A stretch of 64,000 nucleotides of DNA from Candidatus Pacearchaeota archaeon (GCA_023144035.1 JAGLGM010000001.1:65091-129090); one strand, 5' to 3'. Counted from the stretch's first letter, positions 11,151 to 28,365 are shown. Notes: a model not told the origin generated them from the sequence alone. Numbers and translations are program-made.

Positions 11151-14100
11151 TTAACACCATTCTTTTGCTCCCAAATTACATAATGATTTCTTCATTGCTT
11201 GGTTATCTAATAATAATTGATTTATTGTATTATTTTGAGAAATAATTAATTCTTGCTGTCCTTTTGTTGCTTGAACAAGTATAGGAGTTAAATAACCACT
11301 TCTTACTCCTGTTGCATAAAGCATTTTTGTTCCATTTTTATCAATATACCAATTAGATGAATTTGAAGCATTTTCATATATTATTGCCTCAGGAACAATC
11401 TTACCTAATTCTTCTGCAATAAATCCTATATCATGATTTCCAGTATCTTTCCAATTAAAATAACTTCCTTCAATATTAAGAATTTTATCTAAAGCAATTT
11501 GAGAATTTATCTCTGTTATATTTTCTTTCCATCTTATAGAAGAACCAAAACCATAGGTATTATGTGGAGAATAAAAATCAGCAGTGCCACCATCACCATA
11601 CACACCATAAGTAGTCCCTGTACCATACATACCAGTGTTTCCATCACCATATACACCAGTAGCAGTTCCTATACCATATACACCAGTAGTACCTCCACTA
11701 CCATATACACCATAAGTAGTTCCATAACTATATATTCCTGTATTGTCACCATCATGAATATAAACAGAATAAGTTGAAGCATCTGTTCCACTATTACCAA
11801 TTCTTAATCTAGATAAAGGAGTTGTATCTCCAATACCTACATTTCCATTATTAATATAAAAAACTTCTCCAGTGCTATCTCTCATTCTAATTCCTGCTAA
11901 ATCACTATTAAGAAATAAATCACTATGAGATTCAGAACCAAATCCAATATATCCTAATCTTGTAGGAGTTGCTCCATAATAAAATGAAAGAATTGGATTT
12001 GCTGCTGTTTCTGTGGTTTCTGTATCTGTAAGAGAAAGCATATTTGCTCCACCAGCAGAAGAAAGAGATAAAAGCGCATTAGGACTATTAGTTCCAATTC
12101 CCCATTTATCTGCTGAAGCATCATAATATAATCCTGCATTTCCTGATGATTTTCCAAGATTTAAATCAGCTATAGCAGGTGCATCTTCATCATAATTATA
12201 AATATTAAAAATATCATTTGCATCTTGATAAAATGTTGCTCTAAATGTTGAATCTCCAAATATTTTTAATCCTACAGCAGCAGCATTAGGGTCTATTATT
12301 TGACTTCCAACAACATGTAATTTCTCAGTAGGATTAGCTGTTCCAATACCTACTCTATTTGTACTTGTATCTACAAACAAATCAGTATTATCAACACTAA
12401 AGTTTCCTGTAAAGTTTCCATCTCCTACTACATTTAAAATATTTTGAGGTGTTATTGTGTTTATACCTACCTTTCCATCTATATCAAATGAGTGTTTATA
12501 TCCTCCTCCAACATATATCTGAAGTTCTGCATCTGTATCTTCAACAGGTCCAAGAAGCATTTTAGTGCCATCCATACCCATCATTCTTATTATGGTTCCA
12601 TCAGAGAATGCACTATAATAACCTCCATATATAACTATTGGTTTATCTCCTCCATCAACATAAAGGTCTCCTCCACTAACATTTGTAGTTCCAATAACAT
12701 GTAAAGGGTTTAATGGACTATCAGTTCCAATACCTACTCTACTAGTTGAACTATCTACAAATAAATCACTTGTATCAACAACCAAATCTCCTCCGAAAGT
12801 TCCAGTCCCAGCAGCATTAAGATTAGGAGCTCCTGTAAGATATAAACCAACATCATCATCAAAATACCCCCAAACTTTATTACCATCTTCAGGTTCAATA
12901 AATTGAAGATCTTCTCCACTAACCCTTATAGCTGCATCTCCAGTACCAGAAGTATCAAAATAAATAGTTGCATCTGCTTTATCTATTCTCAAATCTCCAG
13001 TCATAGTATCTCCTATAACAGCAACAAAATCTAAACTATCCATAGTATCTAAAGTATCAGCATCTCCAACTTTATCTCCTGATTCATAAAATTCAGTTAC
13101 ATCTGAAAGAGTTGCATAAAGACTAGCTTCATCAGTTAATGTGGCTCCTTTAGTATTTATTTGAGTTTGTATATCTGAACTAACTCCTTGTAAATAATCC
13201 ATTTCTGTTGTAGTTACTCCACTTGCCCAATCATAAATATCATCTTTTTCAGGAACACTAGTATCTCCATCCCAACCAACAGCCCAAACTTCATTTGCAC
13301 CAACAGCACCAGTTACTGAATCCCCATTTTCCCAAAATTGTGTTACATCTGAAAGAGTTGCATAAAGACTAGCTTCATCAGTTAATGTGGCTCCTTTAGT
13401 ATTTATTTGAGTTTGTATATCTGAACTAACTCCTTGTAAATAATCCATTTCTGTTGTAGTTACTCCACTTGCCCAATCATAAATATCATCTTTTTCAGGA
13501 ACACTAGTATCTCCATCCCAACCAACAGCCCAAACTTCATTTGCACCAACAGCACCAGTTACTGAATCCCCATTTTCCCAAAATTCAGTTACATCATTAA
13601 GTAAAGTGTATAAATTTGCTTCTGTCATTACAGTTATTTCTGTATAATCTATTGCTGTTCCTAAATCTACACTTAATACTGAACCACTTCCAGTAAGCCC
13701 TGTACCATCAACATCTGTTGCATCAAAAGTTAAAGCGCATGTGCCTGAAGTACACCCGCCATTTAAACCAGAGGTACCTGCAGTAGTTGTTATTCCTGTA
13801 ATATCTCCTGTATTACTTGTATACCCTTCAGGATTTGAAGCATTATAAAAATGAGTTGCATCTAAGCCATCTAATAAATTAGCATCCCCTCCATCAATAG
13901 CATCAGTACCACAACTAAAAGTATTTGAAGAAACAGTATATAATAATTTCCCACTTGTACAATCAGGAATAGCTTTTGTTTGCCAAGTTGATGTTCCGCT
14001 ACCAACCATTATTGAATCTTCAACACTTGCTGTAAGTCCAGTTCCTCCATTTGCGACAGGTAATGTTCCTGTTACTTCTGATGTAAGAGTAATAGTTCCA

Positions 14101-17100
14101 TCATCAATTATTCCTACATCTGATTCACTTATTGCAGTACCTCCAAAAGTAATATCTCCACCTGTAACCGTTAAATCTCCTGAAAAACTAGAAGCAGGAG
14201 AAGTAATTGTAACAGAAGTATCAGCATTCATAGCAAGAGTATCATCAGATTCAATAACCATTCCTGTCGCTGTTCCATCAATATATGTTCCTGTATCTAC
14301 CCATCTAATATCTGTTCCAGAAGCCATTGTAATTGGAGCTGTACTTGAAAAAGTATGTGCTGCTGTCCATTCAAAAGTTGCTCCCTCATTTAATTCATCG
14401 TCACTAATTGAATTAGCTGGAACAGTTATTCCAGTAACAAAAGTTGGAGAAGTACTAAATACAACATCTCCAGTTCCAGTTCTTGCAGAATAATTTGCAG
14501 ACCATAAAGGTTCTCCAATTGGAGCATATGCTGCATCACCTTCAGTAGCAGTAAGTAAGTCAGCATGAACTTCATTAACAGCCCAAGGATTTGCAGTATT
14601 ATCCCAATCTGCTGTAATTGTTTCAGCTTCTCCTAAAAATGCAACAAGTGATTTATTTCCTGTCCAATAAGGATCTGTTTCTGTGTAAGATGTTAATACA
14701 GCATTTTCATTAGAATAAATTGTTCCTGTAAAATTACCATCTCCAATTACATTTAAAGTGTTTTGAGGAGAAGTTGTTCCAATACCTACATTTCCTGTAT
14801 TTACATCCCAGTGCATTATAGCATACCAACTACTACCTGCATCTGGACTTCTATCTAATACTAAATCTGCACCAGCTGTTTCTCTAAATGAAAACCAATC
14901 ACTACCTGCCCCTCCTGCTTCTCTAAATTCTAAAAGCCTTGAAGCTCCGGGAGTATTACTTGCACTTGGAGCTTTTATACTTAATGATGCCTCAGGACTA
15001 CTTGTTCCAATCCCAACATTCCCAGTTCCTAAATCCATTACTAAAATATTATCTACTCTTGTTCCTATTGCATCTGTTAAAGAAGTATATTTAGCAATTC
15101 CTCCATTAACATTAAAAAGTATTCCTTTATCATCTGCTCCCCCTCCTAAATCTCCATAGATTACATTTACAGAATCTCCTTCCATTACCAAATTAGCATT
15201 TCCACCACTATTATAAATATGTTGTGTTAAACCAGTCATATCTCCTGTACTTCCAAATAAATTTAATCCGGGGCTTGTTGTTCCGATACCTACATTTCCA
15301 TCTTTGTCTATTCTCATTTGCTCAGATATTGAACCCCCTGTGGATGTAACAAATAATAATACAGCAGAATCTTCAATAGTACCAGATATATGAGAATATA
15401 TTGCTGCAACTGTTGAATCCTTTGCTTTAAACTGAATACCACCAACACTATAATCATCACCTAATTCTTGAACTCTGTTTAAAATCAAATTAGGTGCAGC
15501 AGTTGTTTTCTTTAATTCTAATAAATCTCCAGGACTATCAGTTCCAATACCTACATTTCCAGCAGAATCAATTCTCATACCTTCAGCTGCTGCACCATAT
15601 TTAAAAATTAATTCATTAGTTGCATCAGAATGTATACCTGCTCTTTCTACTCCTCCTACTGTTTCTCTAAAAGTATATCCACCTGCTATCCTTCCAATTC
15701 CAATATCTCCATTTACTTCTAATTTTGTTCCAGGGATATCAGTCCCAATACCAATATTTTGATTTTCTAACCAAGTCATAATTGTACTTGCACTTACTCC
15801 TTCTTCTCTTAATCTAAACCTTCCTTGACTTCCATCATCATCTGATAAAAATCTAAAAGGAATACCATTTGTATCTGTTGAAGTTAATCCTATTTGTGCT
15901 GTTGCATCTTCAATTTCTAAATTATAATCAGGACTATCAGTTCCAATACCTACATTACCTGCTTGATTAATATACATACGAGAATTTGAACCATTAGTTT
16001 GAAATTCAATTCCGTCGGCTACATCAGTTGTTCTTATTGTATAATCTGAATTAGAACCACTATCAAATCCAGAAAAACCTATTGTATCTCCATTTCCATC
16101 TTTAACAATTGTATATCCATAAGAAGCATCCAAAACCCCTGTGCTTTGTAATGTTATATGAGTATCAGAATCTTTTAAGTGTAGAATTGTATCAGGATTA
16201 TCTGTTCCAATACCTACATTTCCATCATTATTATTCACAAAAAAATCTGTTCCACCAACACTCAAATTATTATCACCTAAAACAAGATTTGTGTTTGCAC
16301 CAGTATAAGGAACATAACTTGTATTTGTTGTAGAACTCCAAGTAGTGTTATAAGCTGTCCAATTTGACACCCAAGTAGAACCTTGACTCCAAGAATTATT
16401 ATAAGCTGTATAATTTGAAGACCAAAGAGGTTCATTAACTAAAGCATAAGAAGTATTTGTTGTAGAACTCCAAGTAGTGTTGTAAGCTGTCCAATTAGCT
16501 AACCAAGTAACATCTCCACCTGAACTCCAAGTAGTGTTATAAGCTGTCCAATTAGCTAACCAAGTTGCATCTGAACCAGAACCACTAACAGAACTTAAAC
16601 AATTTCCTCCTTCAATACAAAAATCTACTTGAGAAGTTACATTTCCTGTGAAATTTCCATCTCCAATTACATTTAAGGTGTTTTGGGGTGTTGCAGTGTT
16701 TATACCTATGTTTCCACCATCTTTAAGAATCATCCTAAGATGAGAATCTGTTCTACCTCCAACATAAAATTCAATATCTGTTGAGGGAGTATAAGCAGTA
16801 AGAAATAAATTTCCACCAGAACTTTGAATCCCGCCTTTTCCAGCATAATTAGGAACAGCTGCATATCCATCAGAATGAGTAGCAAAATTTAATTGGGAAT
16901 CACTCCCATTTGCAGGAGCATTAAATAAAAACCCTGCAGAACCATCATTTGAAGTTGTATCCACTCTACTTCTAATATTATCTGAACCAGAAATATGTAA
17001 AATTCTTTCAGGATTATCTGTCCCAATACCTACATTACCATCAACAATTAAAGTATCACTGGTTCTTAATTTGTCTGCAGAATCCCTATATAAATCTACA

Positions 17101-20100
17101 TCAATATCTGTACTTCCTGCACCCCATCCTAATTTCCCAACACCATCAAAATTAAATCTTGCATAAGTTTCTCCACTAATTGATGTATAAAAAACTCCTC
17201 TACCAGAAGTTGGAATTGTATTATGAACTAAACCAAAACTCATTCTATCATATAAATCATCACTCTTCATTTTTATTTCGCCTTGATTTCCTTCAATACT
17301 AAAAATCTGTATATTATTACCTGATGTTGTATCTATAATATGTAATTTATCTTCTGGACTACTCGTCCCAATCCCAACATTCCCAGTTGAACTATCTACA
17401 AATAAATCAGTATTATCAACACTAAAGTTTCCTGTGAAGTTTCCATCTCCAATTACATTTAAGGTGTTTTGAGGGGTTGTTGTGTTTATACCTACTCTAG
17501 CAACTCCACCAGTTTCATCAATACGAATTCCTTCAACTCCACCAGCAACTAAACTTAGTTGGTCTGGAGTTCCATCAATAGCAGTTGCTATTCCTGTGTT
17601 TTCATCACCTTCAAAAGTTATTGTTAGACTAGCTAATGTTGGTGCTTCTGCTTTTAAACTACCACCATAAGCTACATTTGAACCAAAATATCTATTATTC
17701 TTTAAGGCAAATTTCGCAACTCCTCCAAGTACAAAATTTAATCTATCATCCAAACTTTCATAAAAACCAGTATCACCATCACCAAAAGTTAAACCTCCAG
17801 ATAAACTTCCTAATGTTCCATTAAGATTTAATAAAGATTGAGGATTATCTGTCCCTATCCCAACATTATCACCACTATTAGTTAGAAAAACATCAGTTCC
17901 TGCCCTACTCCAAGTTGAAGTATTACCTGAGAATGTTCCGAAGAAATTAGAAGCAGTTACATTCCCTGCAATAGAAACATTACCAGAACTAAAATCCCCC
18001 TGAATCAAAGGAACAGCATTTACATTTGCTTGTTGAACTATGAATTGATTAGATAAAACATTATTTAAACCAGCTTGATAACCTAAAGCAACAACATCGT
18101 CACCTGTGTTATTATAACCTGCTTGATAACCAATTCCTGTAATTGTATGTCCTGTGTTTAAACGACCAGCCTCGTAACCAATTCCTATAGCATTACTTCC
18201 TTCATTTGAATAACCTGCTCTAAAACCAATTGTTGATTGATAAGCTCCTTGATTTGAATAACCTGCTTGATAACCTATTGCTACTTGATTAATTCCTGTA
18301 TTTGAATGACCTGAATAAGGTCCAAATACAACTTGATTACTTCCTATATTTGAATAACCTGCATAATAACCTATTGCTGATTGACCCACACCTTCATTTT
18401 CACGACCTGCATTAAGACCAAATACTGATTGATAATCTGCTTTATTATCATAACCTGCATAATAACCTATTGCAACTTGACTAGTTCCATTATTTTGATA
18501 ACCTGCATAATAACCTATTGCTGATTGATAATCTCCTGTGTTTAAATAACCTGAATAAGCTCCTAATGCAGCTTGATTAAATCCGGTATTTGCTTGGCCT
18601 GTACGATAACCTACTGCTGATTGTTGGTTTCCTGTATTTGATAAACCTGCTTGATAACCAATTGCTATTTGACGATTTCCTGTATTTGAAAAACCTGCTT
18701 GATAACCAATTGCTAAAGAATATAAAGTATCAGAACCTGCTAATTTTCCAATTCCAAAACTATTATTTGTTTCAAAATATTCTATAAAATCATCACCACC
18801 AAATTTATATGTTTGGTCATTTGGAATTGTTAATCCTCCTGTAAAGTTTCCATCTCCAATTACATTTAAGGTGTTTTGTGGGGTTAAAGTATTTATTCCA
18901 ACATTTCCTGTATTATCTATCCTCATTCTTTCTAAACCATTTGTTGCAAACCTCATATTAGTATCTTCATAATTCCAAAATATTAATTCTTCAACAGTAG
19001 ACATACCAAATAAAACACCATCACTTGAACCAACACCTGTATCATCATTTGAAAATCTTACATGTAAACTACCTCCTCCTGATTCAAATAAATCTAAATT
19101 ACGAGTTGGTGTTGAAGTTCCAATCCCAACATTCCCAGTTGAACTATCTACAAATAAATCAGTATTATCAACACTAAAGTTTCCTGTGAAGTTTCCATCT
19201 CCAATTACATTTAAGGTGTTTTGAGGTGTTGAAGTGTTGATACCTACATTTCCACTATTAATATAAGAGTTTCCATTTGGATTTATTCTCACATTGTTAT
19301 TCAAAGAAGAATCCCATAAATCTAATACTCCTGTAGCAGAAGCTAAACGCATTCTTTGTGTATAACCATCATCACTATCTCTCCAATAAAATACATCTCC
19401 TGTATCAAAATTAATATTCCCTCCAGTACTCCTTAGAATAAGTGCAGAATTTCCTACGAAAGTTAAGGCGTTTGTCCCCATTATTATTCCTTGTCCAACT
19501 GAATTTACATACATTTGGACATTCTCTGCACTTTTGTCATCATATCCATTTAATTGTATACCTTTTCCATCTACACTTTGACTAACTTCTAATTTTACAG
19601 AAGGATTATCAGTCCCAATCCCAACATTATCTCCACTATTAGTTAGAAAAACATCAGTTCCTGCCCTACTCCAAGTTGAAGTATTACCCGAGAATGTTCC
19701 GAAGAAATTAGAAGCAGTTACATTCCCTGCAATAGAAACATTACCAGAACTAAAATCCCCCTGTATCAAAGGAACAGCATTTACATTTGCTTGTTGAACT
19801 ATGAATTGGTCATCTAAAACATTATTTAAACCAGCTTGATAACCTAAAGCAACTACATCGTCACCAGTGTTATTTTGTGTTGCATAATATCCAATTCCTG
19901 TAACTCTATGTCCTGTATTTAAATAACCTGCATAATACCCTATTACTGTTTGAAAACTTCCTGTGTTTTCACGACCTGCAAGATAACCTATTGCTGATTG
20001 ATAAGCTCCTGAATTTTGACGACCAGCATTATAACCTAATGCTGATTGAGAACTCCCTGTATTTTGATAACCTGCAGAATGACCTATTACTACTTGATTA

Positions 20101-23100
20101 ATTCCTGTGTTTGAATTACCTGCATAATAACCTATTGCTGTTTGAATAGTTCCTGTATTTGATTTACCTGCTTGATAACCTATTGCAGTTTGATAAGTTC
20201 CTGTGTTTTGATAACCTGCATAATAACCTATTGCTAAAGAAATTAAAGTATCAGAACCTGCTGATTTTCCAACTCCAAAACTATTATTTGTTTCAAAATA
20301 TTCTATAAAATCATCACCACCAAATTTATATGTTTGGTCATTTGGAATTGTTAATCCTCCTGTGAAGTTTCCATCTCCAATTACATTTAATGTGTTTTGT
20401 GGGGTTGTAGTGTTTATACCAACTTTTTCAAAAAAACCATAATCAGAAGTAATATTATAACCTGTATGATTTATATTTTCATGCATGTGAAAAGAAAGAG
20501 GGTCTACTTCATTTCCTATCTTTGGAGTATAACCACTTGAAACATACATTGCATCAATTCTTAATTTGTGTTGAACATTTGCTCCATTGTTATGAGTTAT
20601 TTTAATCATTATTTTATCATCAATTAAATGGTCAGAAGCATCTCTCATATCTGCGCAAGCCCATCTAAAAGTCTCTCCAGACCTAAAAGTAATATAATCT
20701 TCCCAATAACCACCAGTGTCCCAAATTGCTAAATCAAAATCTTCATTATCAGAAATATATCTTACACAAATTCTATTAACCTCACTTGAAACATTTGCTG
20801 TAGTATTTGCATAATATTCTAAACCCTGCGGAACAACCTCTGTTAAATTATAAGTTACAGCATCATAATTATTATATTGTTGTGTTGAAGTCAAACTTCC
20901 CTCTGGCGTTCCATAAACTACAGTTTCAGTTACAAAAAACCAAACATCTCCTAATAATAGTTCATCTAATTTAGATTCATTAAAAGTTAAATTATATCCA
21001 TTAAAATCACTCCAAGTATCTGTTGTCCAATTAAATAATCCATTGAACCAGTTTCCTGTAACATTCCCTGCAATAGAAACATTACCAGAACTAAAATCCC
21101 CCTGAATCAAAGGAACAGCATTTACATTTGCTTGTTGAACTATGAATTGATTAGAATCATTATTATAATATCCTGCTTGATAACCTATTGCTACAACATC
21201 ATCACCTGTGTTATTATAACCTGCTTCATATCCAAATACAGTAATAGAATTACCAGAATTACGAAAAGCACTGCTTCCACCAATTGCAGTTACAGAAAAA
21301 CCTTCATTTTGATAAGCACTATTAGAACCAAATGCTACAATACTATTACCTAATTGATATCCACCTGCTCTATAACCAACAGCAGTAACATATTGTCCCT
21401 CATTATGATTAAGGGCTTGATAACCCACACCAACAGAATAAACACCTGGACTTGAATATCCTGCCCAAGTTCCAATTAAAACATTTCTACCTCCAGTATT
21501 TCCATCACCTGCTCTATAACCAACAGCTGTAACATCATTACCAGTATTTCCATCACCTGCTAAATAACCAAAATATGTAGATTGACTTGTAGGATTTCCA
21601 GATAATGTTCCAACAGATAATGATTTTAATGTATCATTAAATCTAAAGTTACTTGAATATATTTGACCATCTACTTCTAATTTATAATCTGGACTATCTG
21701 TCCCTATCCCAACACTATCTCCAGTATTAGTCAAGAAAACATCAGTTCCTGCCCTACTCCAAGTTGAAGTATTACCAGAGAATGTTCCGAAGAAATTAGA
21801 AGCAGTTACATTCCCTGCAATAGAAACATTACCAGAACTAAAATCCCCCTGAATTAAAGGAACAGCATTTACATTTGCTTGTTGAACTATGAATTGGTCA
21901 TCTAAAACATTATTTTCTCCTGCTTCATAACCAATGAAAACCCCATCATCTCCAGTATTATTATAACCTGCTTGATAACTAATTCCTGTAACTCTAAGTC
22001 CTGTATTTAGATAACCTGCATTATAACCAATAGAAGTTACAAAGGCTCCAGTATTCTTATAACCTGAATTATATCCTATTGAGACTAAAGATTCTCCAAT
22101 GTTCTCAAATCCTGCTTGATAGCCAAATAATGAAACACTTGCCCCAGTGTTTTCACTTCCAGAAGAATGTCCAAAAAAAGTACTTAGTGAACCAGTATTC
22201 TTATAACCTGCTCTATAACCAACAGCGTTAGAACCAGTCCCAGTATTTGTATGTAATGCTCCAATTCCAAAAGCATTTGAATAAGTTCCAGAATTAAAAG
22301 CTAATGCTTGATAACCAACACCACTAGAATATGCTCCAGTATTTGAAAAACCTGTTTGATAACCTAGAAGAGTTGTTTGAGTTAAGATATCTCCAGTTGA
22401 TGAACCAACAACAGTTGATTTTAAAGAATCACTCCAATTAAAATTAGTTGATTTTATACTTCCTATAACTTCAAGTTCTTCACCAGGATTATCAGTCCCT
22501 ATCCCAACATTATCTCCAATATTAGTTAAGAAAACATCAGTTCCTGCCCTACTCCAAGTTGAAGTATTACCCGAGAATGTTCCAAAGAAATTAGAAGCAG
22601 TTACATTCCCTGCAATAGAAACATTACCAGAACTAAAATCCCCCTGTATCAAAGGAACAGCATTTACATTTGCTTGTTGAACTATGAATTGGTCATCTAA
22701 AACATTATTTTCTCCTGCTTCATAACCTAAAGCAACAACATCGTCACCTGTGTTATTTCGTGTTGCTTCTGCACCCAAACCTGTAACCCTATGTCCTGTA
22801 TTATCATGACCTGCATTAGAACCAATTGCTGCTTGATAATCTCCTGTGTTTTCATAACCTGCAAGATAACCCATTGCTGTTTGATAACCTCCTTCATTTA
22901 ATTGACCTGCTTGATTACCTATTGCTGATTGATAGTTTCCAGTATTTGAACGACCTGCATTTACTCCTATTGCTGATTGAAAAGTTCCTGTGTTTTGATA
23001 ACCTGTATAAAAACCTATTGCTGATTGACCATAACCTTCATTTTCATAACCTGCACGATAACCTATTGCTACTTGATTAGTTCCTGTGTTTAAATAACCT

Positions 23101-26100
23101 GCATAATAACCAATACCTAAAGAATATTGAGTATCAGAACCTGATAATTTTCCAACTCCAAAACTCTTATTTGTTTCAAAATATTCTATAAAATCATCAC
23201 CACCAAATTTATATGTTTGGTCATTTGGAATTGTTAATCCTCCTGTGAAGTTTCCATCTCCAATTACATTTAAGGTGTTTTGAGGACTTGTCGTCCCAAC
23301 TCCTAAATAACCTGAACTAAAATCCCCCTGTATCAAAGGAACAGCATTTACATTATCCATTTTTAAAATAAATTGATTATCTAAAATATTATTTTCTCCT
23401 GCTTCGTGACCAATGAAAACTCCACTATCTCCTGTATTATTATAACCTGCTTGATATCCCATTGCAGTTTGATAAGTTCCTGTGTTTAAACGACCTGTTT
23501 CATAACCTATTGCTGATTGATAAACTCCTGAATTTTGATAACCTGCTTGATAACCTATTGCTGATTGAGAACTCCCTGTATTATAACGACCTGCTTGAGA
23601 ACCTATTGCTACTTGATTATTTCCTTCATTTCCATATCCAGCATAATAACCTATTGCTAATTGTAGACTTCCTGTGTTTGAATGACCTGTATAAAGCCCC
23701 ATTACAACTTGATTATCTCCTGTGTTTGAATGACCTGCAAAATAACCTACTGCTGATTGAGAACTCCCTGTATTTTGATAACCTGCCCAATAACCCAATG
23801 CTGATTGCCCTAAACCTTCATTTTCAAAACCTGCTTGATAACCTATTACTGTTTGACGAATACCTATATTTTGATAACCAGCATAATCTCCTATTGCTAA
23901 AGAACGCAAAGTATCAGAACCTGCTAATTTTCCAACTCCAAAACTATTATTTGTTTCAAAATATTCTATAAAATCATCACCACCAAATTTATATGTTTGG
24001 TCATTTGGAATTGTTAATCCTCCTGTGAAGTTTCCATCTCCAATTACATTTAAAGTATTCTGAGGACTTGTCGTACCGATACCTACATTCCCAGAACTAA
24101 AATCCCCCTGAATCAAAGGAACAGCATTTACATTTGCTTGTTGAACTATGAATTGGTCATCTAAAACATTATTCTTTCCAGCTTGATAACCTATTGCTAC
24201 AACATCATTCCCTTTATTATTTTCCCCTGCTTCATATCCTATTGCAGAAACCTGATTACCAGTATTATTCTTTGAAGCATCAGCCCCTATTCCTATAACA
24301 TTATCTCCTGTTTGTAATTGTCCAGCATAATAACCTACTGCAGTTAATTTATCTCCTTCATTTCCATATCCAGCATATTGTCCAACAGAAGTTAAATAAT
24401 TTCCAATATTTAAACGACCAGCATAATTTCCCACAGAAGTCATATAAGTTCCTGTATTAGAAAATCCAGCATAAGCACCAATTGCTAATTGATTAACACC
24501 ACTATTTACCCTTCCTGCTTGATTACCTATTGCTACTTGATTAGCACCAGAATTGGCAACACCTGCATAATAACCTATTGCAACCTCATCTTCCCCAGTA
24601 TTACTACTACCTGCAAAATAACCAATTGCTACTTGATTAGCACCAGAGCTTGAATCACCAGCTCTATAACCTACTGCTGTTTGTTTTGTTAAACCTAATG
24701 TACCTGCATCATCTCCTACAAAAGTATTAGCATAAACTGCATCTGTTCCTTTATCTAATCTTAAGGCAGTAAATCCATCATATAAATAAGCAGAATTATT
24801 ATCTATGTTTATATTGCCAACAACATCTAAATCATAAGAAGGACTATCTGTCCCTATCCCAACACTATCTCCACTATTAGTTAAAAAAACATCAGTTCCT
24901 GCCCTACTCCAAGTTGAAGTATTACCTTCCATTGTTCCAGTAAAATTACCAAAGAAATTATCTGCTGTAACATTTCCATCTACAACCACATTTTCATTAA
25001 AAGTAACTTCTGAATCTGTTACTTCAACTACATTTTCATCATTTGCAATTAAATGCAAACTTGAAGTCCCATAACCTAATCCATAACTTGTCTCCTCTTG
25101 ATTAGGTATAATTGTAGGATTTGTGCTTGAAGTTTCCTCATTAAGAATTGCTCCACTTTTAACAATATTTCCTGAAAGAAAATTCCCTGAAACACTCCCA
25201 AAAGTCACATTACTTGTAAAATTCGCAGGTTTCCAACCAGTTATTTGCGAAGAAGTTAATTCTAAAATATTAGTATCTCCAGCAATAATATTAACACTTG
25301 AACTCCCATAACCTATTCCATAACCTGTTTCTCCTTTATTTGGAAGAATTGTAGGAACAGTTGAAGTAGATTGAACATTAACAAACCCATATGAACCAGC
25401 CACAACACCAGTCAAACTCCCTTGAACAGTCATATCTTGAGTAATATTTACTGAAGAACTATTAAATTCAGCAACATTTATAGAATCAGCAATTAAATGA
25501 ATGCTTTGAGAACCATACCCCAGACCATAACCTGTTTCCCCTTGATTAGGCACAATAGTAGGATTTGTACTTGAAGACCCCTCATTAAGAATTGCTCCAC
25601 TTGTAGCCTCACTTCCTCTTAAAAAATCCCCTCCAAAAGTTACATTTCCTGTGAAGTTTCCATCTCCAATTACATTTAAGGTGTTTTGGGGGTCAGTAGT
25701 TCCAATACCAACTCTCGCAATTCCACCAGTTTCATTAATATTTAATCCATTTACTCCACCAGCAACTAAAGATAATGTATCTTCTCCTGCCCATCCAATA
25801 CCTGTATCTATATCTCCTCTACTTGGTTCTATTGAAGGATAATAAGAAGTTGCTCCTGCTGATTTAAGTCTTGGTCCGCTACTATCTGAAGAATAAAAAC
25901 CCCCTGCAGCAAACCAAAACCTTACACTTCCAGCAGCAAATACTCCTAAAACATCATCTCCATACCTTTCTCCAAAACCAGTATCCCCATCTCCAAATGA
26001 AATAACTGGTTCATTAATTCCAGTATTTGATAAAGATATTTTAGATGCATATAAATCCCCAGTAAAATTCCCATCTCCAATTACATTTAAAGCACTTAGA

Positions 26101-26789
26101 GGATTATCTGTCCCTATCCCAACATTATCACCAATATTAGTTAGAAAAACATCAGTTCCTGCCCTACTCCAAGTTGAAGTATTACCTTCCATTGTTCCAG
26201 TAAAATTACCAAAGAAATTATCTGCTGTGATATTTCCAGTAGTAGTTATATTTCCTATTCCAATAACTTCTCCACTAAAATCTAAATCAGTCACAAACAA
26301 CTTAGAAATCCTTGAAGTTAAACTTCCAAGAAACCCAAAAAAACCAGTACCAGTTGTAGTCACATTATAAGCACCCATATCAAGATTTTGATCTATTTCA
26401 ACTCCACTCAAAGTTATATTCTGTGCTCTAAAAGAATAAGGAGTCCGAGCAATTTTTGAAGAGTCCTTTAAAGCACCATCTCTGTAATAACAAAGATAAT
26501 ATTGCTCATCATAATCAAGAGTAACACTTGGAAGATAATATGAAATTATCCCACGCGTATCAGTTAAAAGAGTTGTAGAATTAGTATAAATTATATTGTC
26601 ACAAGTAGAAGTTGTTGAAATATTAAATACAAAATCAAAAGTCCCTGTAGTAATTGTTCCATTATCAAATGTTGTTTGAATATTTAAATGAATGTCATCA
26701 GTAATTACAGCAGCCATTGTAAAAGAAATTGAAAGAGTTATAACTAAAGTTATTACTAAAATATTATAAAAATGCCTTATTAACTTCAT
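11151..26789 (-). CDS. Giant (5212 aa) repetitive surface fibre protein. Phage tail-fibre-like beta-helix/beta-roll repeats. C-terminal intramolecular chaperone (Peptidase S74-like) domain
   Basis: Single uninterrupted 15.6-kb ORF. N-terminal signal/TM (MKLIRHFYNILVITLVITLSISF). More than 15 copies of VGIGTxxPxNTLNVIGDGNFTG. Long arrays of 14-residue AIGYxAGxxNTGxxQx repeats (YadA-head/Hep_Hag-like). Several ~70-aa modules (FIVQQANVNAVPLIQGDFSSGNVSIAGNVTASNFFGTFSGNTSTWSRAGTDVFLTN...). Hundreds of N-x-S/T sequons. C-terminus (11151..~11600) matches endosialidase chaperone: SSIRWKENI...YFNWKD...IGFIAEELGKIVPEAI...YATGVRSGYLTPILVQATKGQQELI. Confidence 0.85.
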   Translation of the reverse strand: MKLIRHFYNILVITLVITLSISFTMAAVITDDIHLNIQTTFDNGTITTGTFDFVFNISTTSTCDNIIYTNSTTLLTDTRGIISYYLPSVTLDYDEQYYLCYYRDGALKDSSKIARTPYSFRAQNITLSGVEIDQNLDMGAYNVTTTGTGFFGFLGSLTSRISKLFVTDLDFSGEVIGIGNITTTGNITADNFFGNFTGTMEGNTSTWSRAGTDVFLTNIGDNVGIGTDNPLSALNVIGDGNFTGDLYASKISLSNTGINEPVISFGDGDTGFGERYGDDVLGVFAAGSVRFWFAAGGFYSSDSSGPRLKSAGATSYYPSIEPSRGDIDTGIGWAGEDTLSLVAGGVNGLNINETGGIARVGIGTTDPQNTLNVIGDGNFTGNVTFGGDFLRGSEATSGAILNEGSSSTNPTIVPNQGETGYGLGYGSQSIHLIADSINVAEFNSSSVNITQDMTVQGSLTGVVAGSYGFVNVQSTSTVPTILPNKGETGYGIGYGSSSVNIIAGDTNILELTSSQITGWKPANFTSNVTFGSVSGNFLSGNIVKSGAILNEETSSTNPTIIPNQEETSYGLGYGTSSLHLIANDENVVEVTDSEVTFNENVVVDGNVTADNFFGNFTGTMEGNTSTWSRAGTDVFLTNSGDSVGIGTDSPSYDLDVVGNINIDNNSAYLYDGFTALRLDKGTDAVYANTFVGDDAGTLGLTKQTAVGYRAGDSSSGANQVAIGYFAGSSNTGEDEVAIGYYAGVANSGANQVAIGNQAGRVNSGVNQLAIGAYAGFSNTGTYMTSVGNYAGRLNIGNYLTSVGQYAGYGNEGDKLTAVGYYAGQLQTGDNVIGIGADASKNNTGNQVSAIGYEAGENNKGNDVVAIGYQAGKNNVLDDQFIVQQANVNAVPLIQGDFSSGNVGIGTTSPQNTLNVIGDGNFTGGLTIPNDQTYKFGGDDFIEYFETNNSFGVGKLAGSDTLRSLAIGDYAGYQNIGIRQTVIGYQAGFENEGLGQSALGYWAGYQNTGSSQSAVGYFAGHSNTGDNQVVMGLYTGHSNTGSLQLAIGYYAGYGNEGNNQVAIGSQAGRYNTGSSQSAIGYQAGYQNSGVYQSAIGYETGRLNTGTYQTAMGYQAGYNNTGDSGVFIGHEAGENNILDNQFILKMDNVNAVPLIQGDFSSGYLGVGTTSPQNTLNVIGDGNFTGGLTIPNDQTYKFGGDDFIEYFETNKSFGVGKLSGSDTQYSLGIGYYAGYLNTGTNQVAIGYRAGYENEGYGQSAIGFYTGYQNTGTFQSAIGVNAGRSNTGNYQSAIGNQAGQLNEGGYQTAMGYLAGYENTGDYQAAIGSNAGHDNTGHRVTGLGAEATRNNTGDDVVALGYEAGENNVLDDQFIVQQANVNAVPLIQGDFSSGNVSIAGNVTASNFFGTFSGNTSTWSRAGTDVFLTNIGDNVGIGTDNPGEELEVIGSIKSTNFNWSDSLKSTVVGSSTGDILTQTTLLGYQTGFSNTGAYSSGVGYQALAFNSGTYSNAFGIGALHTNTGTGSNAVGYRAGYKNTGSLSTFFGHSSGSENTGASVSLFGYQAGFENIGESLVSIGYNSGYKNTGAFVTSIGYNAGYLNTGLRVTGISYQAGYNNTGDDGVFIGYEAGENNVLDDQFIVQQANVNAVPLIQGDFSSGNVSIAGNVTASNFFGTFSGNTSTWSRAGTDVFLTNTGDSVGIGTDSPDYKLEVDGQIYSSNFRFNDTLKSLSVGTLSGNPTSQSTYFGYLAGDGNTGNDVTAVGYRAGDGNTGGRNVLIGTWAGYSSPGVYSVGVGYQALNHNEGQYVTAVGYRAGGYQLGNSIVAFGSNSAYQNEGFSVTAIGGSSAFRNSGNSITVFGYEAGYNNTGDDVVAIGYQAGYYNNDSNQFIVQQANVNAVPLIQGDFSSGNVSIAGNVTGNWFNGLFNWTTDTWSDFNGYNLTFNESKLDELLLGDVWFFVTETVVYGTPEGSLTSTQQYNNYDAVTYNLTEVVPQGLEYYANTTANVSSEVNRICVRYISDNEDFDLAIWDTGGYWEDYITFRSGETFRWACADMRDASDHLIDDKIMIKITHNNGANVQHKLRIDAMYVSSGYTPKIGNEVDPLSFHMHENINHTGYNITSDYGFFEKVGINTTTPQNTLNVIGDGNFTGGLTIPNDQTYKFGGDDFIEYFETNNSFGVGKSAGSDTLISLAIGYYAGYQNTGTYQTAIGYQAGKSNTGTIQTAIGYYAGNSNTGINQVVIGHSAGYQNTGSSQSALGYNAGRQNSGAYQSAIGYLAGRENTGSFQTVIGYYAGYLNTGHRVTGIGYYATQNNTGDDVVALGYQAGLNNVLDDQFIVQQANVNAVPLIQGDFSSGNVSIAGNVTASNFFGTFSGNTSTWSRAGTDVFLTNSGDNVGIGTDNPSVKLEVSQSVDGKGIQLNGYDDKSAENVQMYVNSVGQGIIMGTNALTFVGNSALILRSTGGNINFDTGDVFYWRDSDDGYTQRMRLASATGVLDLWDSSLNNNVRINPNGNSYINSGNVGINTSTPQNTLNVIGDGNFTGNFSVDNTDLFVDSSTGNVGIGTSTPTRNLDLFESGGGSLHVRFSNDDTGVGSSDGVLFGMSTVEELIFWNYEDTNMRFATNGLERMRIDNTGNVGINTLTPQNTLNVIGDGNFTGGLTIPNDQTYKFGGDDFIEYFETNNSFGIGKLAGSDTLYSLAIGYQAGFSNTGNRQIAIGYQAGLSNTGNQQSAVGYRTGQANTGFNQAALGAYSGYLNTGDYQSAIGYYAGYQNNGTSQVAIGYYAGYDNKADYQSVFGLNAGRENEGVGQSAIGYYAGYSNIGSNQVVFGPYSGHSNTGINQVAIGYQAGYSNQGAYQSTIGFRAGYSNEGSNAIGIGYEAGRLNTGHTITGIGYQAGYNNTGDDVVALGYQAGLNNVLSNQFIVQQANVNAVPLIQGDFSSGNVSIAGNVTASNFFGTFSGNTSTWSRAGTDVFLTNSGDNVGIGTDNPQSLLNLNGTLGSLSGGLTFGDGDTGFYESLDDRLNFVLGGVAKFALKNNRYFGSNVAYGGSLKAEAPTLASLTITFEGDENTGIATAIDGTPDQLSLVAGGVEGIRIDETGGVARVGINTTTPQNTLNVIGDGNFTGNFSVDNTDLFVDSSTGNVGIGTSSPEDKLHIIDTTSGNNIQIFSIEGNQGEIKMKSDDLYDRMSFGLVHNTIPTSGRGVFYTSISGETYARFNFDGVGKLGWGAGSTDIDVDLYRDSADKLRTSDTLIVDGNVGIGTDNPERILHISGSDNIRSRVDTTSNDGSAGFLFNAPANGSDSQLNFATHSDGYAAVPNYAGKGGIQSSGGNLFLTAYTPSTDIEFYVGGRTDSHLRMILKDGGNIGINTATPQNTLNVIGDGNFTGNVTSQVDFCIEGGNCLSSVSGSGSDATWLANWTAYNTTWSSGGDVTWLANWTAYNTTWSSTTNTSYALVNEPLWSSNYTAYNNSWSQGSTWVSNWTAYNTTWSSTTNTSYVPYTGANTNLVLGDNNLSVGGTDFFVNNNDGNVGIGTDNPDTILHLKDSDTHITLQSTGVLDASYGYTIVKDGNGDTIGFSGFDSGSNSDYTIRTTDVADGIEFQTNGSNSRMYINQAGNVGIGTDSPDYNLEIEDATAQIGLTSTDTNGIPFRFLSDDDGSQGRFRLREEGVSASTIMTWLENQNIGIGTDIPGTKLEVNGDIGIGRIAGGYTFRETVGGVERAGIHSDATNELIFKYGAAAEGMRIDSAGNVGIGTDSPGDLLELKKTTAAPNLILNRVQELGDDYSVGGIQFKAKDSTVAAIYSHISGTIEDSAVLLFVTSTGGSISEQMRIDKDGNVGIGTTSPGLNLFGSTGDMTGLTQHIYNSGGNANLVMEGDSVNVIYGDLGGGADDKGILFNVNGGIAKYTSLTDAIGTRVDNILVMDLGTGNVGIGTSSPEASLSIKAPSASNTPGASRLLEFREAGGAGSDWFSFRETAGADLVLDRSPDAGSSWYAIMHWDVNTGNVGIGTTSPQNTLNVIGDGNFTGTIYSNENAVLTSYTETDPYWTGNKSLVAFLGEAETITADWDNTANPWAVNEVHADLLTATEGDAAYAPIGEPLWSANYSARTGTGDVVFSTSPTFVTGITVPANSISDDELNEGATFEWTAAHTFSSTAPITMASGTDIRWVDTGTYIDGTATGMVIESDDTLAMNADTSVTITSPASSFSGDLTVTGGDITFGGTAISESDVGIIDDGTITLTSEVTGTLPVANGGTGLTASVEDSIMVGSGTSTWQTKAIPDCTSGKLLYTVSSNTFSCGTDAIDGGDANLLDGLDATHFYNASNPEGYTSNTGDITGITTTAGTSGLNGGCTSGTCALTFDATDVDGTGLTGSGSVLSVDLGTAIDYTEITVMTEANLYTLLNDVTEFWENGDSVTGAVGANEVWAVGWDGDTSVPEKDDIYDWASGVTTTEMDYLQGVSSDIQTQINTKGATLTDEASLYATLSDVTQFWENGDSVTGAVGANEVWAVGWDGDTSVPEKDDIYDWASGVTTTEMDYLQGVSSDIQTQINTKGATLTDEASLYATLSDVTEFYESGDKVGDADTLDTMDSLDFVAVIGDTMTGDLRIDKADATIYFDTSGTGDAAIRVSGEDLQFIEPEDGNKVWGYFDDDVGLYLTGAPNLNAAGTGTFGGDLVVDTSDLFVDSSTSRVGIGTDSPLNPLHVIGTTNVSGGDLYVDGGDKPIVIYGGYYSAFSDGTIIRMMGMDGTKMLLGPVEDTDAELQIYVGGGYKHSFDIDGKVGINTITPQNILNVVGDGNFTGNFSVDNTDLFVDTSTNRVGIGTANPTEKLHVVGSQIIDPNAAAVGLKIFGDSTFRATFYQDANDIFNIYNYDEDAPAIADLNLGKSSGNAGLYYDASADKWGIGTNSPNALLSLSSAGGANMLSLTDTETTETAANPILSFYYGATPTRLGYIGFGSESHSDLFLNSDLAGIRMRDSTGEVFYINNGNVGIGDTTPLSRLRIGNSGTDASTYSVYIHDGDNTGIYSYGTTYGVYGSGGTTGVYGIGTATGVYGDGNTGMYGTGTTYGVYGDGGTADFYSPHNTYGFGSSIRWKENITEINSQIALDKILNIEGSYFNWKDTGNHDIGFIAEELGKIVPEAIIYENASNSSNWYIDKNGTKMLYATGVRSGYLTPILVQATKGQQELIISQNNTINQLLLDNQAMKKSLCNLGAKEWC
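13096..13587. repeat. Exact tandem duplication of a 246-bp (82-aa) unit inside the giant gene
   Basis: The protein segment FWENGDSVTGAVGANEVWAVGWDGDTSVPEKDDIYDWASGVTTTEMDYLQGVSSDIQTQINTKGATLTDEASLYATLSDVT occurs twice back-to-back. The DNA copies are essentially identical. Confidence 0.85.
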
Positions 26790-27371: not shown

Positions 27372-27417
27372 TCTTTCTTAAGAACTTTTAAATATACTAA
27401 AAATATCAATCTTTTAT

Positions 27418-27443: not shown

Positions 27444-27488
27444 TGAAATTAAAATTTAGTAATCATTCTGGCTATAACAAACACTGAA

Positions 27489-27803: not shown

Positions 27804-27807
27804 TCAT

Positions 27808-28364: not shown

Positions 28365-28365
28365 A

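What the first reader, a model, noticed from the sequence alone, without database searches (positions are those of the whole stretch)
13096..25700. Giant gene is built from near-identical DNA cassettes, including an exact 246-bp tandem duplication
Read directly from the sequence. The 246-bp unit at 13096..13341 is repeated at 13342..13587. A ~60-nt block (cctcctgtgaagtttccatctccaattacatttaaggtgttttg) recurs at ~16650, 17430, 18840, 19180, 20350, 23240, 24020 and 25650. An ~85-nt block (gattatctgtccctatcccaacattatc...actccaagttgaagtattacc) recurs at ~17870, 19610, 21700, 22480, 24860 and 26110. Repeats this long and this identical within one gene mean ongoing homologous recombination, so copy number probably varies between cells or strains (fibre length or antigenic variation). 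They are also an assembly hazard.
Basis: seen in the sequence. Interest (0 to 1): 0.55.

Follow-up and report, generated by a model that had tools for sequence, protein, structure and literature searches.

The report
Repeat-built giant archaeal surface-fibre gene
A 15.6-kb gene of a tiny cold-seep archaeon encodes a giant tail-fibre-like surface protein assembled from repeated in-frame modules, and public assemblies of the same population already disagree on the number of one 246-bp module (one copy, two copies, or an unresolved gap).

Summary
ORF 11151..26789 (-) encodes 5212 aa. The 246-bp unit is duplicated in tandem: 244 nt are exact and only the last 2 nt differ. The 44-nt and 85-nt blocks recur at every listed position.

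"Near-identical cassettes" is overstated. Whole cassettes are 70-86% identical. Their cores are degenerate 48-nt (16-aa) repeat arrays with no one-to-one correspondence. High identity is confined to in-frame junction blocks with exact runs of 77-127 nt, where codons are 81-92% identical against about 57% expected.

The protein is annotated "tail fiber domain-containing protein" of a Candidatus Pacearchaeota (DPANN) MAG. It has an N-terminal hydrophobic leader, phage tail-fibre-like modules and a C-terminal Peptidase_S74 chaperone domain. It is probably a trimeric cell-surface fibre.

The recombination reading is partly supported.
- A cluster-mate protein is identical except for exactly one missing 82-aa unit.
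- Assemblies from three other samples carry the duplication junction with its private 2-nt mark. One is contiguous and two have N-gaps there.
- All four SNPs between assemblies are synonymous, lie in junction blocks, and switch to a base found in paralogous copies.

All the data are Illumina short reads, so real copy-number heterogeneity cannot be separated from assembler choice. This is an ordinary kind of thing (compare BadA) in an unusual host.

The parts
11151..26789 (-). Giant ORF of 5212 aa, identical to NCBI MCK5624310.1, 'tail fiber domain-containing protein [Candidatus Pacearchaeota archaeon]'.
26712..26789 (-). N-terminal hydrophobic leader (aa 1-26, MKLIRHFYNILVITLVITLSISFTMA). Read as a signal peptide or membrane anchor; this is inferred.
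   Evidence: sequence read; no predictor was run
13342..13587 (-). First 246-bp (82-aa) unit in coding order, aa 4401-4482.
13096..13341 (-). Second 246-bp (82-aa) unit in coding order. 244 nt are identical to the first unit.
13317..13388 (-). Duplication junction J1. It is a hybrid of the unit's 3' end and the upstream flank. It lies in a 16-nt stretch (GATGTAACTGAATTTT) shared by the two outer junctions J0 and J2. It carries a private TG>AC change (E>Q).
24150..24692 (-). Array 1 of degenerate 48-nt / 16-aa repeats (consensus AIGYxAGxxNTGxxQx).
23385..23912 (-). Array 2 of 16-aa repeats (about 10 units).
22695..23132 (-). Array 3 of 16-aa repeats (about 8 units).
21915..22382 (-). Array 4 of 16-aa repeats (about 9 units, more degenerate).
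21150..21572 (-). Array 5 of 16-aa repeats (degenerate).
19800..20252 (-). Array 6 of 16-aa repeats (about 8 units). The AlphaFold2 model gives one strand per repeat with block-mean pLDDT 88-95 over most of the array, and no significant PDB match.
18045..18722 (-). Array 7 of 16-aa repeats (about 13 units).
20264..20390 (-). Start junction block (…NVIGDGNFTGGLTIPNDQTYKFGGDDFIEYFETN…). The 127-nt run is exactly identical to 23927-24053. Further copies lie at about 23109-23288 and 18705-18884.
23927..24053 (-). Partner of the 127-nt exact run (start junction block of the cassette at aa 908).
19702..19827 (-). End junction block (…QFIVQQANVNAVPLIQGDFSSGNV…). The 126-nt run is exactly identical to 22585-22710. 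Related copies lie at 17929-18053, 21061-21155, 21778-21932 and 24091-24173.
22585..22710 (-). Partner of the 126-nt exact run (end junction block).
17368..17474 (-). 107-nt exact run, identical to 19120-19226. It lies within the block encoding (G)INT.TPQNTLNVIGDGNFTGNFSVDNTDLFVDSSTGNVGIGTS (131 nt, 96% identical). A third copy at 12340-12470 is 82% identical.
19120..19226 (-). Partner of the 107-nt exact run.
17843..17927 (-). One of six copies of the 85-nt block (NTSTWSRAGTDVFLTN.GD.VGIGTD.P). The others are at 19604-19688, 21692-21776, 22487-22571, 24842-24926 and 26102-26186.
23239..23282 (-). Reference copy of the 44-nt block (TPQNTLNVIGDGNFTG). Other copies start at 12403, 14722, 16642, 17428, 18835, 19180, 20356, 24019 and 25645.
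16465..16572 (-). 57-nt tandem repeat (1.9 copies, 94% matches) encoding the Trp-rich motif NWTAYNTTWSS. A related copy starts at 16333.
11582..11734 (-). 27/51-nt repeats encoding the Gly/Tyr-rich G.YG.G.T.GVYG stretch just upstream of the S74 domain.
11382..11543 (-). Peptidase_S74 intramolecular-chaperone domain, aa 5083-5136. It starts SSIRWK, with Ser5083 and Lys5088 at model positions 1 and 6.
19764..19764 (-). Synonymous SNP between assemblies (T in the window, A in L001/L002/L005/L006). The paralogous site 22647 changes the same way, and A is the base in four other block copies. Further such sites are 21855 (T/C) and 17928 (T/C).

Best explanation
The gene encodes a giant secreted or membrane-anchored surface fibre of a DPANN archaeon (Candidatus Pacearchaeota, South China Sea cold seep). 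The fibre is probably a homotrimer.

Architecture:
- An N-terminal hydrophobic leader.
- Seven arrays of a 16-residue solenoid-type repeat.
- Many ~100-aa modules that begin GNVGIGT..P...L.V.G.
- Helical units carrying a DYLQGVSSDIQTQI motif.
- A C-terminal Peptidase_S74 self-cleaving chaperone domain of the type that trimerises phage tail fibres and tailspikes.

The gene grew by repeated in-frame duplication of modules. The short junction blocks flanking the arrays are kept almost identical at the DNA level by intragenic recombination or gene conversion. The arrays themselves have diverged or been scrambled.

The 246-bp duplication is the youngest event. It is an unequal exchange within a 16-nt stretch shared by the two flanks, followed by one 2-nt change.

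Because every block pair is in frame and exact tracts reach 77-244 nt, the gene can gain or lose modules without losing its reading frame. A one-unit and a two-unit version both exist in public data.

Shown here: the repeat anatomy, the S74 domain, tail-fibre homology, excess codon identity, paralog-matching SNPs, the real duplication junction, and the 82-aa length difference.

Inferred: trimeric fibre, surface location, host attachment, and that copy number varies among living cells.
For: Anatomy and protein family:
- Repeat anatomy is shown.
- Peptidase_S74 scores 42.7 bits against a cut-off of 22, over model positions 1-57.
- PHROG tail-fibre and tailspike families hit aa 3334-4000, the cassette and the C-terminus, with E from 1e-8 to 1e-26.
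- Cassette homologues are ~440-aa proteins that often carry PF13884 and/or PF05658.
- The NCBI name of the identical protein agrees.
- The AlphaFold2 model of the cassette has block-mean pLDDT 88-95 over most of the array (residues ~50-180), with one strand per 16 aa.

Chromosomal archaeal context:
- Four tRNA matches of 118-153 nt, long enough to contain introns.
- An archaeal ThrRS editing domain, Kae1, other aminoacyl-tRNA synthetases and RNase P p30.

Homogenised junction blocks:
- Codon identity at identical residues is 0.81-0.92 against 0.54-0.60 expected. The 16-aa units compared all against all give 0.69.
- In-register identity equals out-of-register identity inside the arrays.
- The blocks end at sharp breakpoints.
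- Sawyer-type tests give P(SSCF) of 0.0004, 0.0 and 0.005.

The duplication is real:
- Junction J1 with its private AC dinucleotide is present once in the window and once in assemblies from three other samples. The junction that a simple graph loop would produce is absent.

Length variant:
- P0242 is 5130 aa, which is P0241 minus one unit with no substitutions.

SNPs:
- All four differences between assemblies lie inside the gene. No differences occur in about 11.6 kb of upstream flank in L005, or in the downstream flank of L001.
- All four are synonymous, lie in junction blocks, and match a paralogous copy.
Against: 1. All assemblies come from one Illumina-only project that used MEGAHIT with k up to 141. 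A 244-nt exact repeat cannot be phased by such reads, so both the one-copy protein and the paralog-matching SNPs could be assembler path choices.
2. Apart from the 246-bp unit, no cassette-number difference appears between the three assemblies that could be aligned.
3. No strain or sister species carrying an orthologous gene was found.
4. The trimeric fibre is not shown. The monomer model has no significant PDB neighbour, and the model of the 82-aa units is poor (pLDDT 59).
5. Excess codon identity could partly reflect selection at the codon level.
Confidence: 0.68

Rival explanations
1. The copy-number difference and the SNPs are purely assembly artefacts. The population carries one fixed allele with two or more units. 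The one-copy protein is a collapsed repeat, and the paralog-matching SNPs are wrong path or consensus choices inside exact 77-126-nt repeats. Recombination happened in the past but is not ongoing.
For: - The reads are 150 nt and the largest k-mer is 141, both shorter than the 244-nt exact repeat.
- Scaffolds from two samples carry 100-N gaps exactly in the unit, and Logan contigs end in repeat blocks.
- SNP sites 19764 and 22647 lie inside the same 126-nt exact repeat and change together. An assembler walking one path twice would produce this.
- P0242 has no substitution relative to P0241.
Against: - A fixed two-copy allele should break a de Bruijn contig at the repeat. Yet a 478-kb contig passes through it with one copy.
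- SNPs at 21855 and 17928 sit at the edges of exact runs, where the flanking unique bases are within read length.
- None of this is decisive.
Confidence: 0.4
2. There is no recombination-driven homogenisation. The blocks are alike only because the peptide motifs are under strong purifying selection in an AT-rich genome with strong codon bias.
For: - The blocks encode almost invariant peptides (TPQNTLNVIGDGNFTG, NAVPLIQGDFSSG, TWSRAGTDVFLTN).
- Even the unrelated 16-aa units share 69% of codons at identical residues, against 54% expected.
Against: - Codon identity in the blocks (0.81-0.92) exceeds both the codon-usage expectation and the 16-aa-unit control.
- Exact runs of 107-127 nt span more than 35 codons without one synonymous change.
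- Concordant polymorphic sites are clustered.
- Three homologous giant genes of 3054-3179 aa have longest internal exact repeats of only 32-35 nt.
Confidence: 0.12
3. The differences between cassettes are written by a dedicated diversifying system, such as a diversity-generating retroelement, a shufflon or invertase, or silent donor cassettes.
For: DPANN and CPR organisms are known hosts of DGRs (bioRxiv 10.1101/2020.04.01.020958, listed). The variable positions of the 16-aa repeat differ at almost every x position between arrays.
Against: - No reverse transcriptase, integrase or invertase was found among the ORFs of at least 150 aa scanned against Pfam; 30858-31325, 35521-36595 and 60585-61073 were not scanned.
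- Substitutions are not adenine-specific. A>T and T>A are balanced.
- No copy of any part of the gene exists elsewhere in the 64-kb window, by blastn or tblastn.
- The apparent excess of amino-acid changes comes from aligning repeat units that do not correspond.
Confidence: 0.03

Closest known systems
Bartonella adhesin A (BadA) and other trimeric autotransporter adhesins with repetitive head/neck/stalk arrays
   Same: - Very long modular fibre gene built of repeated domain arrays.
- Highly repetitive DNA.
- Domain-array number differs between isolates through recombination, and this was only resolved with long reads (PMC8859334).
- The 16-aa repeat profile weakly matches the head of the trimeric autotransporter EibD (E = 0.008).
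- Some cassette homologues carry Pfam Hep_Hag, PF05658.
   Different: - There is no YadA-type beta-barrel anchor. The host is an archaeon without an outer membrane.
- The C-terminus is a Peptidase_S74 chaperone instead.
- The anchor, if any, is N-terminal.
- Pfam Hep_Hag does not hit this protein.
- No flanking pseudogene or donor cassettes were found in the window.
Phage tail fibres, tailspikes and endosialidases with a C-terminal intramolecular chaperone domain (Peptidase_S74)
   Same: - The S74 domain has Ser and Lys at the expected model positions.
- Several modules hit PHROG tail-fibre and tailspike families.
- The GNVGIGT..P...L.V.G motif aligns with the start of the chaperone-domain region of MYRF, PDB 7dc3.
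   Different: - The gene sits in a cellular archaeal chromosome among housekeeping genes, not in a virus.
- It has an N-terminal hydrophobic leader.
- At 5212 aa it is several times longer than typical fibres.
- No match was found in IMG/VR for the conserved block DNA.
Alpha C / Rib (Alp) surface proteins of group B streptococci
   Same: From my own recollection, not tested here: their genes contain large tandem repeats that are identical at the DNA level (reported as 246 bp / 82 aa in bca). Repeat number changes by recombination and alters antigenicity. The same logic applies to the 246-bp unit here.
   Different: There is no sequence relationship. Pfam finds no Rib domain in aa 4300-4600. 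Only two copies are present here. The organism, envelope and anchoring differ.
Giant surface proteins of other DPANN archaea (the 'SPEARE' proteins of nanohaloarchaea)
   Same: A giant extracellular protein with a Sec-type leader in an ultrasmall, probably host-attached archaeon, and proposed to mediate host contact (PMC10266531).
   Different: Those proteins are built of Ig-like and fibronectin-like domains with a VirB4/TraG-like ATPase. This one is built of tail-fibre-like modules with an S74 domain. No homology between them was shown.

Membership tests
Tail fiber domain-containing proteins with a C-terminal intramolecular chaperone (Pfam PF13884, Peptidase_S74) | A Peptidase_S74 domain at the C-terminus scoring above Pfam's gathering score. 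| tested here: met
   42.7 bits against a cut-off of 22, E = 7e-11, model positions 1-57 of 58, aa 5083-5136. PHROG tail-fibre families also hit the same region.
Tail fiber domain-containing proteins with a C-terminal intramolecular chaperone (Pfam PF13884, Peptidase_S74) | A catalytic Ser...Lys pair at the start of the domain (the self-cleavage site). | tested here: met
   The domain starts S5083-S-I-R-W-K5088, so Ser and Lys fall on model positions 1 and 6. The assignment of these positions to the catalytic dyad rests on my knowledge of endosialidase and MYRF. Cleavage itself was not tested.
Tail fiber domain-containing proteins with a C-terminal intramolecular chaperone (Pfam PF13884, Peptidase_S74) | Homotrimeric fibre whose folding depends on the chaperone domain. 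| not testable with these tools
   Only monomer prediction is available. The monomer model of the cassette is solenoid-like but has no significant PDB match.
Phage virion tail fibre (a structural protein of a virus) | Encoded within a viral or proviral genome next to other virion genes. | tested here: not met
   The flanks are archaeal housekeeping genes and toxin-antitoxin pairs. No virion genes were found among the neighbours, and there was no IMG/VR match to the block DNA.
Trimeric autotransporter adhesins (type Vc secretion) | A C-terminal YadA-like beta-barrel membrane anchor. | tested here: not met
   Pfam finds only Peptidase_S74 in the C-terminal half. The host is an archaeon.
Trimeric autotransporter adhesins (type Vc secretion) | YadA-like head repeats (Pfam Hep_Hag, PF05658). 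| tested here: inconclusive
   Pfam gives no hit on the cassette at E <= 1. A cassette profile hits the EibD head at E = 0.008 with heavy compositional bias. Several homologues carry PF05658.
Alp/Rib family of Gram-positive surface proteins | Rib domain repeats. | tested here: not met
   Pfam finds no Rib domain in aa 4300-4600. The resemblance is by analogy only.
Diversity-generating retroelement target gene | A nearby reverse transcriptase and a template repeat with adenine-specific mismatches to the variable repeat. | tested here: not met
   No reverse transcriptase was found among the window ORFs scanned. The substitution spectrum is not adenine-specific. No extra copy of gene DNA exists in the window.
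Contingency or variable-length repeat genes (intragenic recombination changes module number) | Long in-frame DNA repeats of high identity within one ORF. | tested here: met
   Exact runs of 244, 127, 126 and 107 nt. All strong repeat pairs are in the same frame.
Contingency or variable-length repeat genes (intragenic recombination changes module number) | Alleles with different repeat numbers within a population or between strains. | tested here: inconclusive
   Proteins of 5212 and 5130 aa differ by exactly one unit. All data are short-read assemblies, and two scaffolds have gaps at the unit.

The most novel reading that the evidence does not exclude
The in-frame, DNA-identical junction blocks work as built-in recombination sites. 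They would let an ultrasmall, host-dependent archaeon continually reshuffle and resize its attachment fibre. A natural population would then carry a spectrum of fibre lengths and array compositions. This would be a recombination-based surface-variation system of the pathogen type, documented for the first time in DPANN archaea.
Probability: 0.2. Interest if true: 0.65.

Novelty: new member of a known kind. Interest (0 to 1): 0.38.

Why it matters
DPANN archaea are thought to live attached to other cells, and how they recognise and hold their hosts is largely unknown. This gene would take up a few percent of a genome of the ~1 Mb size reported for DPANN archaea and is built like a phage receptor-binding fibre, so it is a plausible attachment organelle.

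If module number really varies within the population, host range or attachment distance could be tuned by simple recombination.

There is also a practical point. Genes of this kind are systematically broken, collapsed or mis-phased in short-read MAGs. Catalogues of giant proteins from uncultured lineages are therefore biased against the most repetitive members. Deposited lengths such as 5212 and 5130 aa should not be read as strain differences without long reads.

Tried and rejected
1. **DGR or shufflon.** No reverse transcriptase or recombinase was found among the window ORFs scanned. The substitution spectrum is not adenine-specific.
2. **Silent donor cassettes.** blastn and tblastn of the gene against the rest of the window found nothing.
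3. **dN/dS of about 1 between cassettes.** I first read this as diversifying selection. I dropped that reading because in-register identity equals out-of-register identity in the arrays, so the aligned repeat units do not correspond.
4. **Pfam on the cassette, on the 82-aa units and on aa 3334-4000.** No credible hit.
5. **PDB by sequence.** Nothing for single sequences. A profile gave only marginal hits.
6. **Foldseek of the cassette model against PDB.** No match with E < 0.1.
7. **AlphaFold2 of the two 82-aa units.** Confidence was low (pLDDT 59, pTM 0.20). It shows only helices, so it was not searched further.
8. **Looking for the same species or an orthologue.** GTDB representative genomes gave only ~49% identical C-termini in two other DPANN MAGs. 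L010 showed no long ORF over the match and was not pursued. An exact block-DNA pattern found nothing in JGI metagenomes or IMG/VR.
9. **DNA of the 5130-aa variant.** It could not be fetched. The protein exceeds the 5000-aa look-up limit, and the neighbour look-ups collapse similar places.
10. **Homology of the 82-aa unit.** It was absent from the first 240 hits. The exhaustive search then found 1360 relatives that share a ~35-aa DYL.GV.S.IQ.Q motif, often in many tandem copies.

Full report
**1. Checking the observation**

The window holds one very large ORF at 11151..26789 on the minus strand, encoding 5212 aa.

- **Tandem duplication.** 13096-13341 and 13342-13587 are identical at 244 of 246 positions. 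The exact run is 13096-13339 = 13342-13585, and only the last two bases of the unit differ. TRF reports period 246, 2.1 copies, 98% matches.
- **44-nt block.** The quoted sequence occurs with 0-3 mismatches at all eight listed positions, and two weaker copies lie at 12403 and 14722.
- **85-nt block.** It occurs at all six listed positions, and its last 21 nt are exact in all six.
- **Chance.** Chance is excluded. The longest exact internal repeat is 244 nt, against 15-21 nt in codon shuffles of the gene and 24-44 nt in other stretches of the window. In total 18.7% of the gene lies in exact repeats of at least 31 nt.

**2. How alike are the cassettes?**

They are less alike than the title suggests.

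- Self-BLAST gives 70-86% identity over 500-830 bp for the large cassettes. Short islands reach 90-96%. Only the tandem pair is near 100%.
- The core of each cassette is an array of a degenerate 48-nt / 16-aa repeat with consensus AIGYxAGxxNTGxxQx. There are seven arrays of about 6-13 units each.
- Inside the arrays, identity between two cassettes is the same in register (~0.75) as when shifted by one or two units (~0.72). No unit-for-unit correspondence survives.
- My first dN/dS values of about 1 therefore mean nothing.

High identity is confined to the junction blocks around the arrays:

- A start block, TPQNTLNVIGDGNFTGGLTIPNDQTYKFGGDDFIEYFETN.
- An end block, NNVLDDQFIVQQANVNAVPLIQGDFSSGNVSIAGNVTASNFFGTFSGNTSTWSRAGTDVFLTN.GD.VGIGTD.P.

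These blocks contain exact runs of 127 nt (20264-20390 = 23927-24053), 126 nt (19702-19827 = 22585-22710) and 107 nt (17368-17474 = 19120-19226), plus many runs of 77-95 nt. They end at sharp breakpoints.

**3. Is this more than protein conservation?**

- At residues that are identical between copies, the same codon is used in 81-92% of cases in the blocks. The gene's own codon usage predicts 54-60%. The 16-aa units compared all against all give 69%.
- Sawyer-type permutation tests use polymorphic sites only, so invariant sites do not count. They show clustering of concordant sites in three alignments, with P(SSCF) of 0.0004, 0.0 and 0.005. The longest fragment gives P = 0.02 in the end-block alignment.
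- Three homologous giant genes of 3054-3179 aa from other metagenomes have longest internal exact repeats of only 32-35 nt, with 1-5% of their length in exact repeats.
- This degree of DNA homogeneity is therefore not a general property of the family. One caveat applies: short-read assembly selects against repetitive members.
- I read this as concerted evolution of the junction blocks by intragenic recombination or gene conversion. Some contribution from codon-level selection is not excluded.

**4. The 246-bp duplication in detail**

The three junctions were compared on the coding strand.

- J0 lies between the upstream flank and unit 1, J1 between units 1 and 2, and J2 between unit 2 and the downstream flank.
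- J0 and J2 share the 16-nt stretch GATGTAACTGAATTTT.
- J1 is the hybrid expected from an unequal exchange within that stretch, but it carries a private TG>AC change (Glu>Gln).
- The upstream flank also encodes an older, degenerate copy of the unit's end (EANLYTLLNDVTEF against EASLYATLSDVTQF).
- J1 with its private mark occurs once in the window. It also occurs once in each of the assemblies from three other samples (L001/L013, L002, L012). The junction that a simple graph loop would create is absent.
- The duplication is therefore real and not an assembler loop.

**5. Variation between assemblies**

The identical protein is NCBI MCK5624310.1, 'tail fiber domain-containing protein [Candidatus Pacearchaeota archaeon]'. 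Its 90% cluster has four members:

| Member | Length | Source |
|---|---|---|
| P0241 | 5212 aa | NCBI/ENA, 302-kb contig; identical to the window protein |
| P0242 | 5130 aa | NCBI, 478-kb contig |
| P0243 | 630 aa | C-terminal fragment |
| P0244 | 683 aa | C-terminal fragment |

- P0242 equals the window protein minus exactly one 82-aa unit, with no substitution in 5130 aa.
- The two fragments come from scaffolds with a 100-N gap placed inside the tandem duplication.
- One further scaffold (L002/L006) is contiguous with two units and also encodes 5212 aa.
- Logan contigs of two runs stop inside repeat blocks, at 11855 and 26199.
- Across the whole gene, the two alignable assemblies are collinear with the window. 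They differ at only four sites: 17928, 19764, 21855 and 22647. There are no differences in about 11.6 kb of upstream flank (L005), and none in the downstream flank of L001.
- All four sites are synonymous and lie in junction blocks. Each alternative base is one carried by a paralogous block copy. Sites 19764 and 22647 are the same position of one 126-nt exact repeat and change together.
- The samples are cold-seep fluids and sediments from Site F, South China Sea. They were sequenced on Illumina HiSeq X Ten and assembled with MEGAHIT at k up to 141 (PMC9357000).
- These reads cannot phase a 244-nt exact repeat. The one-copy version and the paralog-matching SNPs are what ongoing recombination predicts. 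They are also what assembler path choice predicts. I cannot separate the two with the tools at hand.

**6. What the gene is**

- **Host.** The host is an archaeon. Four tRNA matches are 118-153 nt long, long enough to contain introns. The window also encodes an archaea-specific ThrRS editing domain, Kae1, several aminoacyl-tRNA synthetases and RNase P p30.
- **Composition.** Window-wise GC is about 24-30% outside the gene and 33-36% within it.
- **Ends of the protein.** It starts with a hydrophobic leader and ends with a Peptidase_S74 domain (42.7 bits against a cut-off of 22) that begins SSIRWK.
- **Viral homology.** PHROG tail-fibre and tailspike families hit aa 3334-4000, the cassette and the C-terminus.
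- **Cassette homologues.** They are mostly ~440-aa proteins from metagenomes, often with PF13884 and sometimes Hep_Hag. Homologues of the C-terminal third are giant proteins of Pacearchaeota, Nanoarchaeota and Patescibacteria, with best identity of only 41% over 18% of the query.
- **Cassette structure.** An AlphaFold2 model of one cassette gives block-mean pLDDT 88-95 over most of the array, with one strand per 16 residues. It has no significant PDB neighbour.
- **Profile hits.** A cassette profile weakly matches the head of the trimeric autotransporter EibD, and matches the chaperone-domain region of MYRF at the GNVGIGT motif.
- **The 82-aa unit.** It contains a ~35-aa DYLQGVSSDIQTQI motif that has 1360 relatives in the representative library. 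In those proteins the motif often occurs in 5-15 tandem copies spaced about 57 aa apart. The closest relative (82% identical over the matched stretch) has a single unit.
- **Other features.** 97 N-x-S/T sequons are present, several of them inside the conserved blocks.
- **Conclusion.** The best reading is a very long surface fibre built from phage-fibre-type modules, probably trimeric and probably glycosylated, and plausibly used for contact with a host cell. Trimer state, location and function are inferred.

**7. Mechanism and rivals**

- All strong repeat pairs are in frame, and exact tracts of 77-244 nt are adequate substrates for homologous recombination. Unequal exchange would therefore add or remove whole modules without breaking the ORF.
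- Pure assembly artefact remains a serious rival for the ongoing-variation part (confidence about 0.4).
- Pure protein-level conservation is unlikely (about 0.12).
- A dedicated diversifier such as a DGR is essentially excluded within this window (about 0.03).

**8. Comparison and novelty**

- The closest functional analogue is BadA of Bartonella henselae. It has a highly repetitive modular fibre gene whose domain arrays differ between isolates by recombination, and this was only seen with long reads (PMC8859334).
- The Alp/Rib proteins are a second analogue, cited from memory only.
- By membership, the protein is an S74 'tail fiber domain-containing protein'. It is not a trimeric autotransporter, because it has no beta-barrel anchor. 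It is not a virion protein, because its context is cellular.
- The giant surface proteins described in nanohaloarchaea have a different architecture (PMC10266531).
- The phenomenon is known and the host and module set are new, so I file it as a new member of a known kind. Interest is modest.

Noticed in passing
window 28751-28794 and 30724-30767 (tRNA at 28673-28790, +): A 44-nt exact direct repeat. The first copy is the 3' end of an intron-containing tRNA, so about 1.97 kb carrying five small ORFs (93-123 aa) is bracketed by a duplicated tRNA 3' half. This looks like the attachment-site scar of a small integrated element, but no integrase-sized ORF lies inside.
   Followed up: partly
window 27489-27609, 28673-28790, 61126-61259, 62509-62661: Four tRNA matches in Rfam are 118-153 nt long and were missed by ARAGORN, so they presumably contain introns. 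Only the 75-nt tRNA-Gln at 62028-62102 was found by both tools.
   Followed up: no
window 27100-31700: The region upstream of the giant gene is packed with small toxin-antitoxin-type genes: an RHH_12 protein next to a PemK toxin, a PspC-domain protein, and a nucleotidyltransferase next to a HepT-like protein. More such pairs lie downstream of the giant gene: MazE/PemK, RHH/PIN and ParE.
   Followed up: no
window 6251-6595 versus L002 14513-14857: The last ~345 nt of the ENA scaffold L002 differ from the window at about 24% of positions, inside the Obg-like GTPase gene. The preceding 14.5 kb differ at only 2 sites. This is either a chimeric contig end or a second, divergent strain in that sample.
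   Followed up: no
window 9911-11107 (-): A 398-aa ORF immediately downstream of the giant gene, conserved in that position in all related assemblies. It has no Pfam or PHROG match. It could be a partner of the fibre.
   Followed up: no
window 23462-23971 (+): A 169-aa ORF antisense to the giant gene, lying inside a 48-nt repeat array. It is most likely a by-product of the repeat composition and not a gene.
   Followed up: no
window 12001-26000 versus flanks: GC is 33-36% inside the giant gene, against about 24-30% in the rest of the window. This fits its Gly/Thr/Asn/Ser-rich composition (14.4% Gly).
   Followed up: partly
window 3555 and 4290: A further exact direct repeat of at least 30 nt outside the giant gene. 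It was not examined.
   Followed up: no
window 7097-8143 (-): A 348-aa protein with a DUF4215 Cys-rich repeat and a weak Rifin-like hit at its C-terminus. It may be another surface protein near the giant gene.
   Followed up: no
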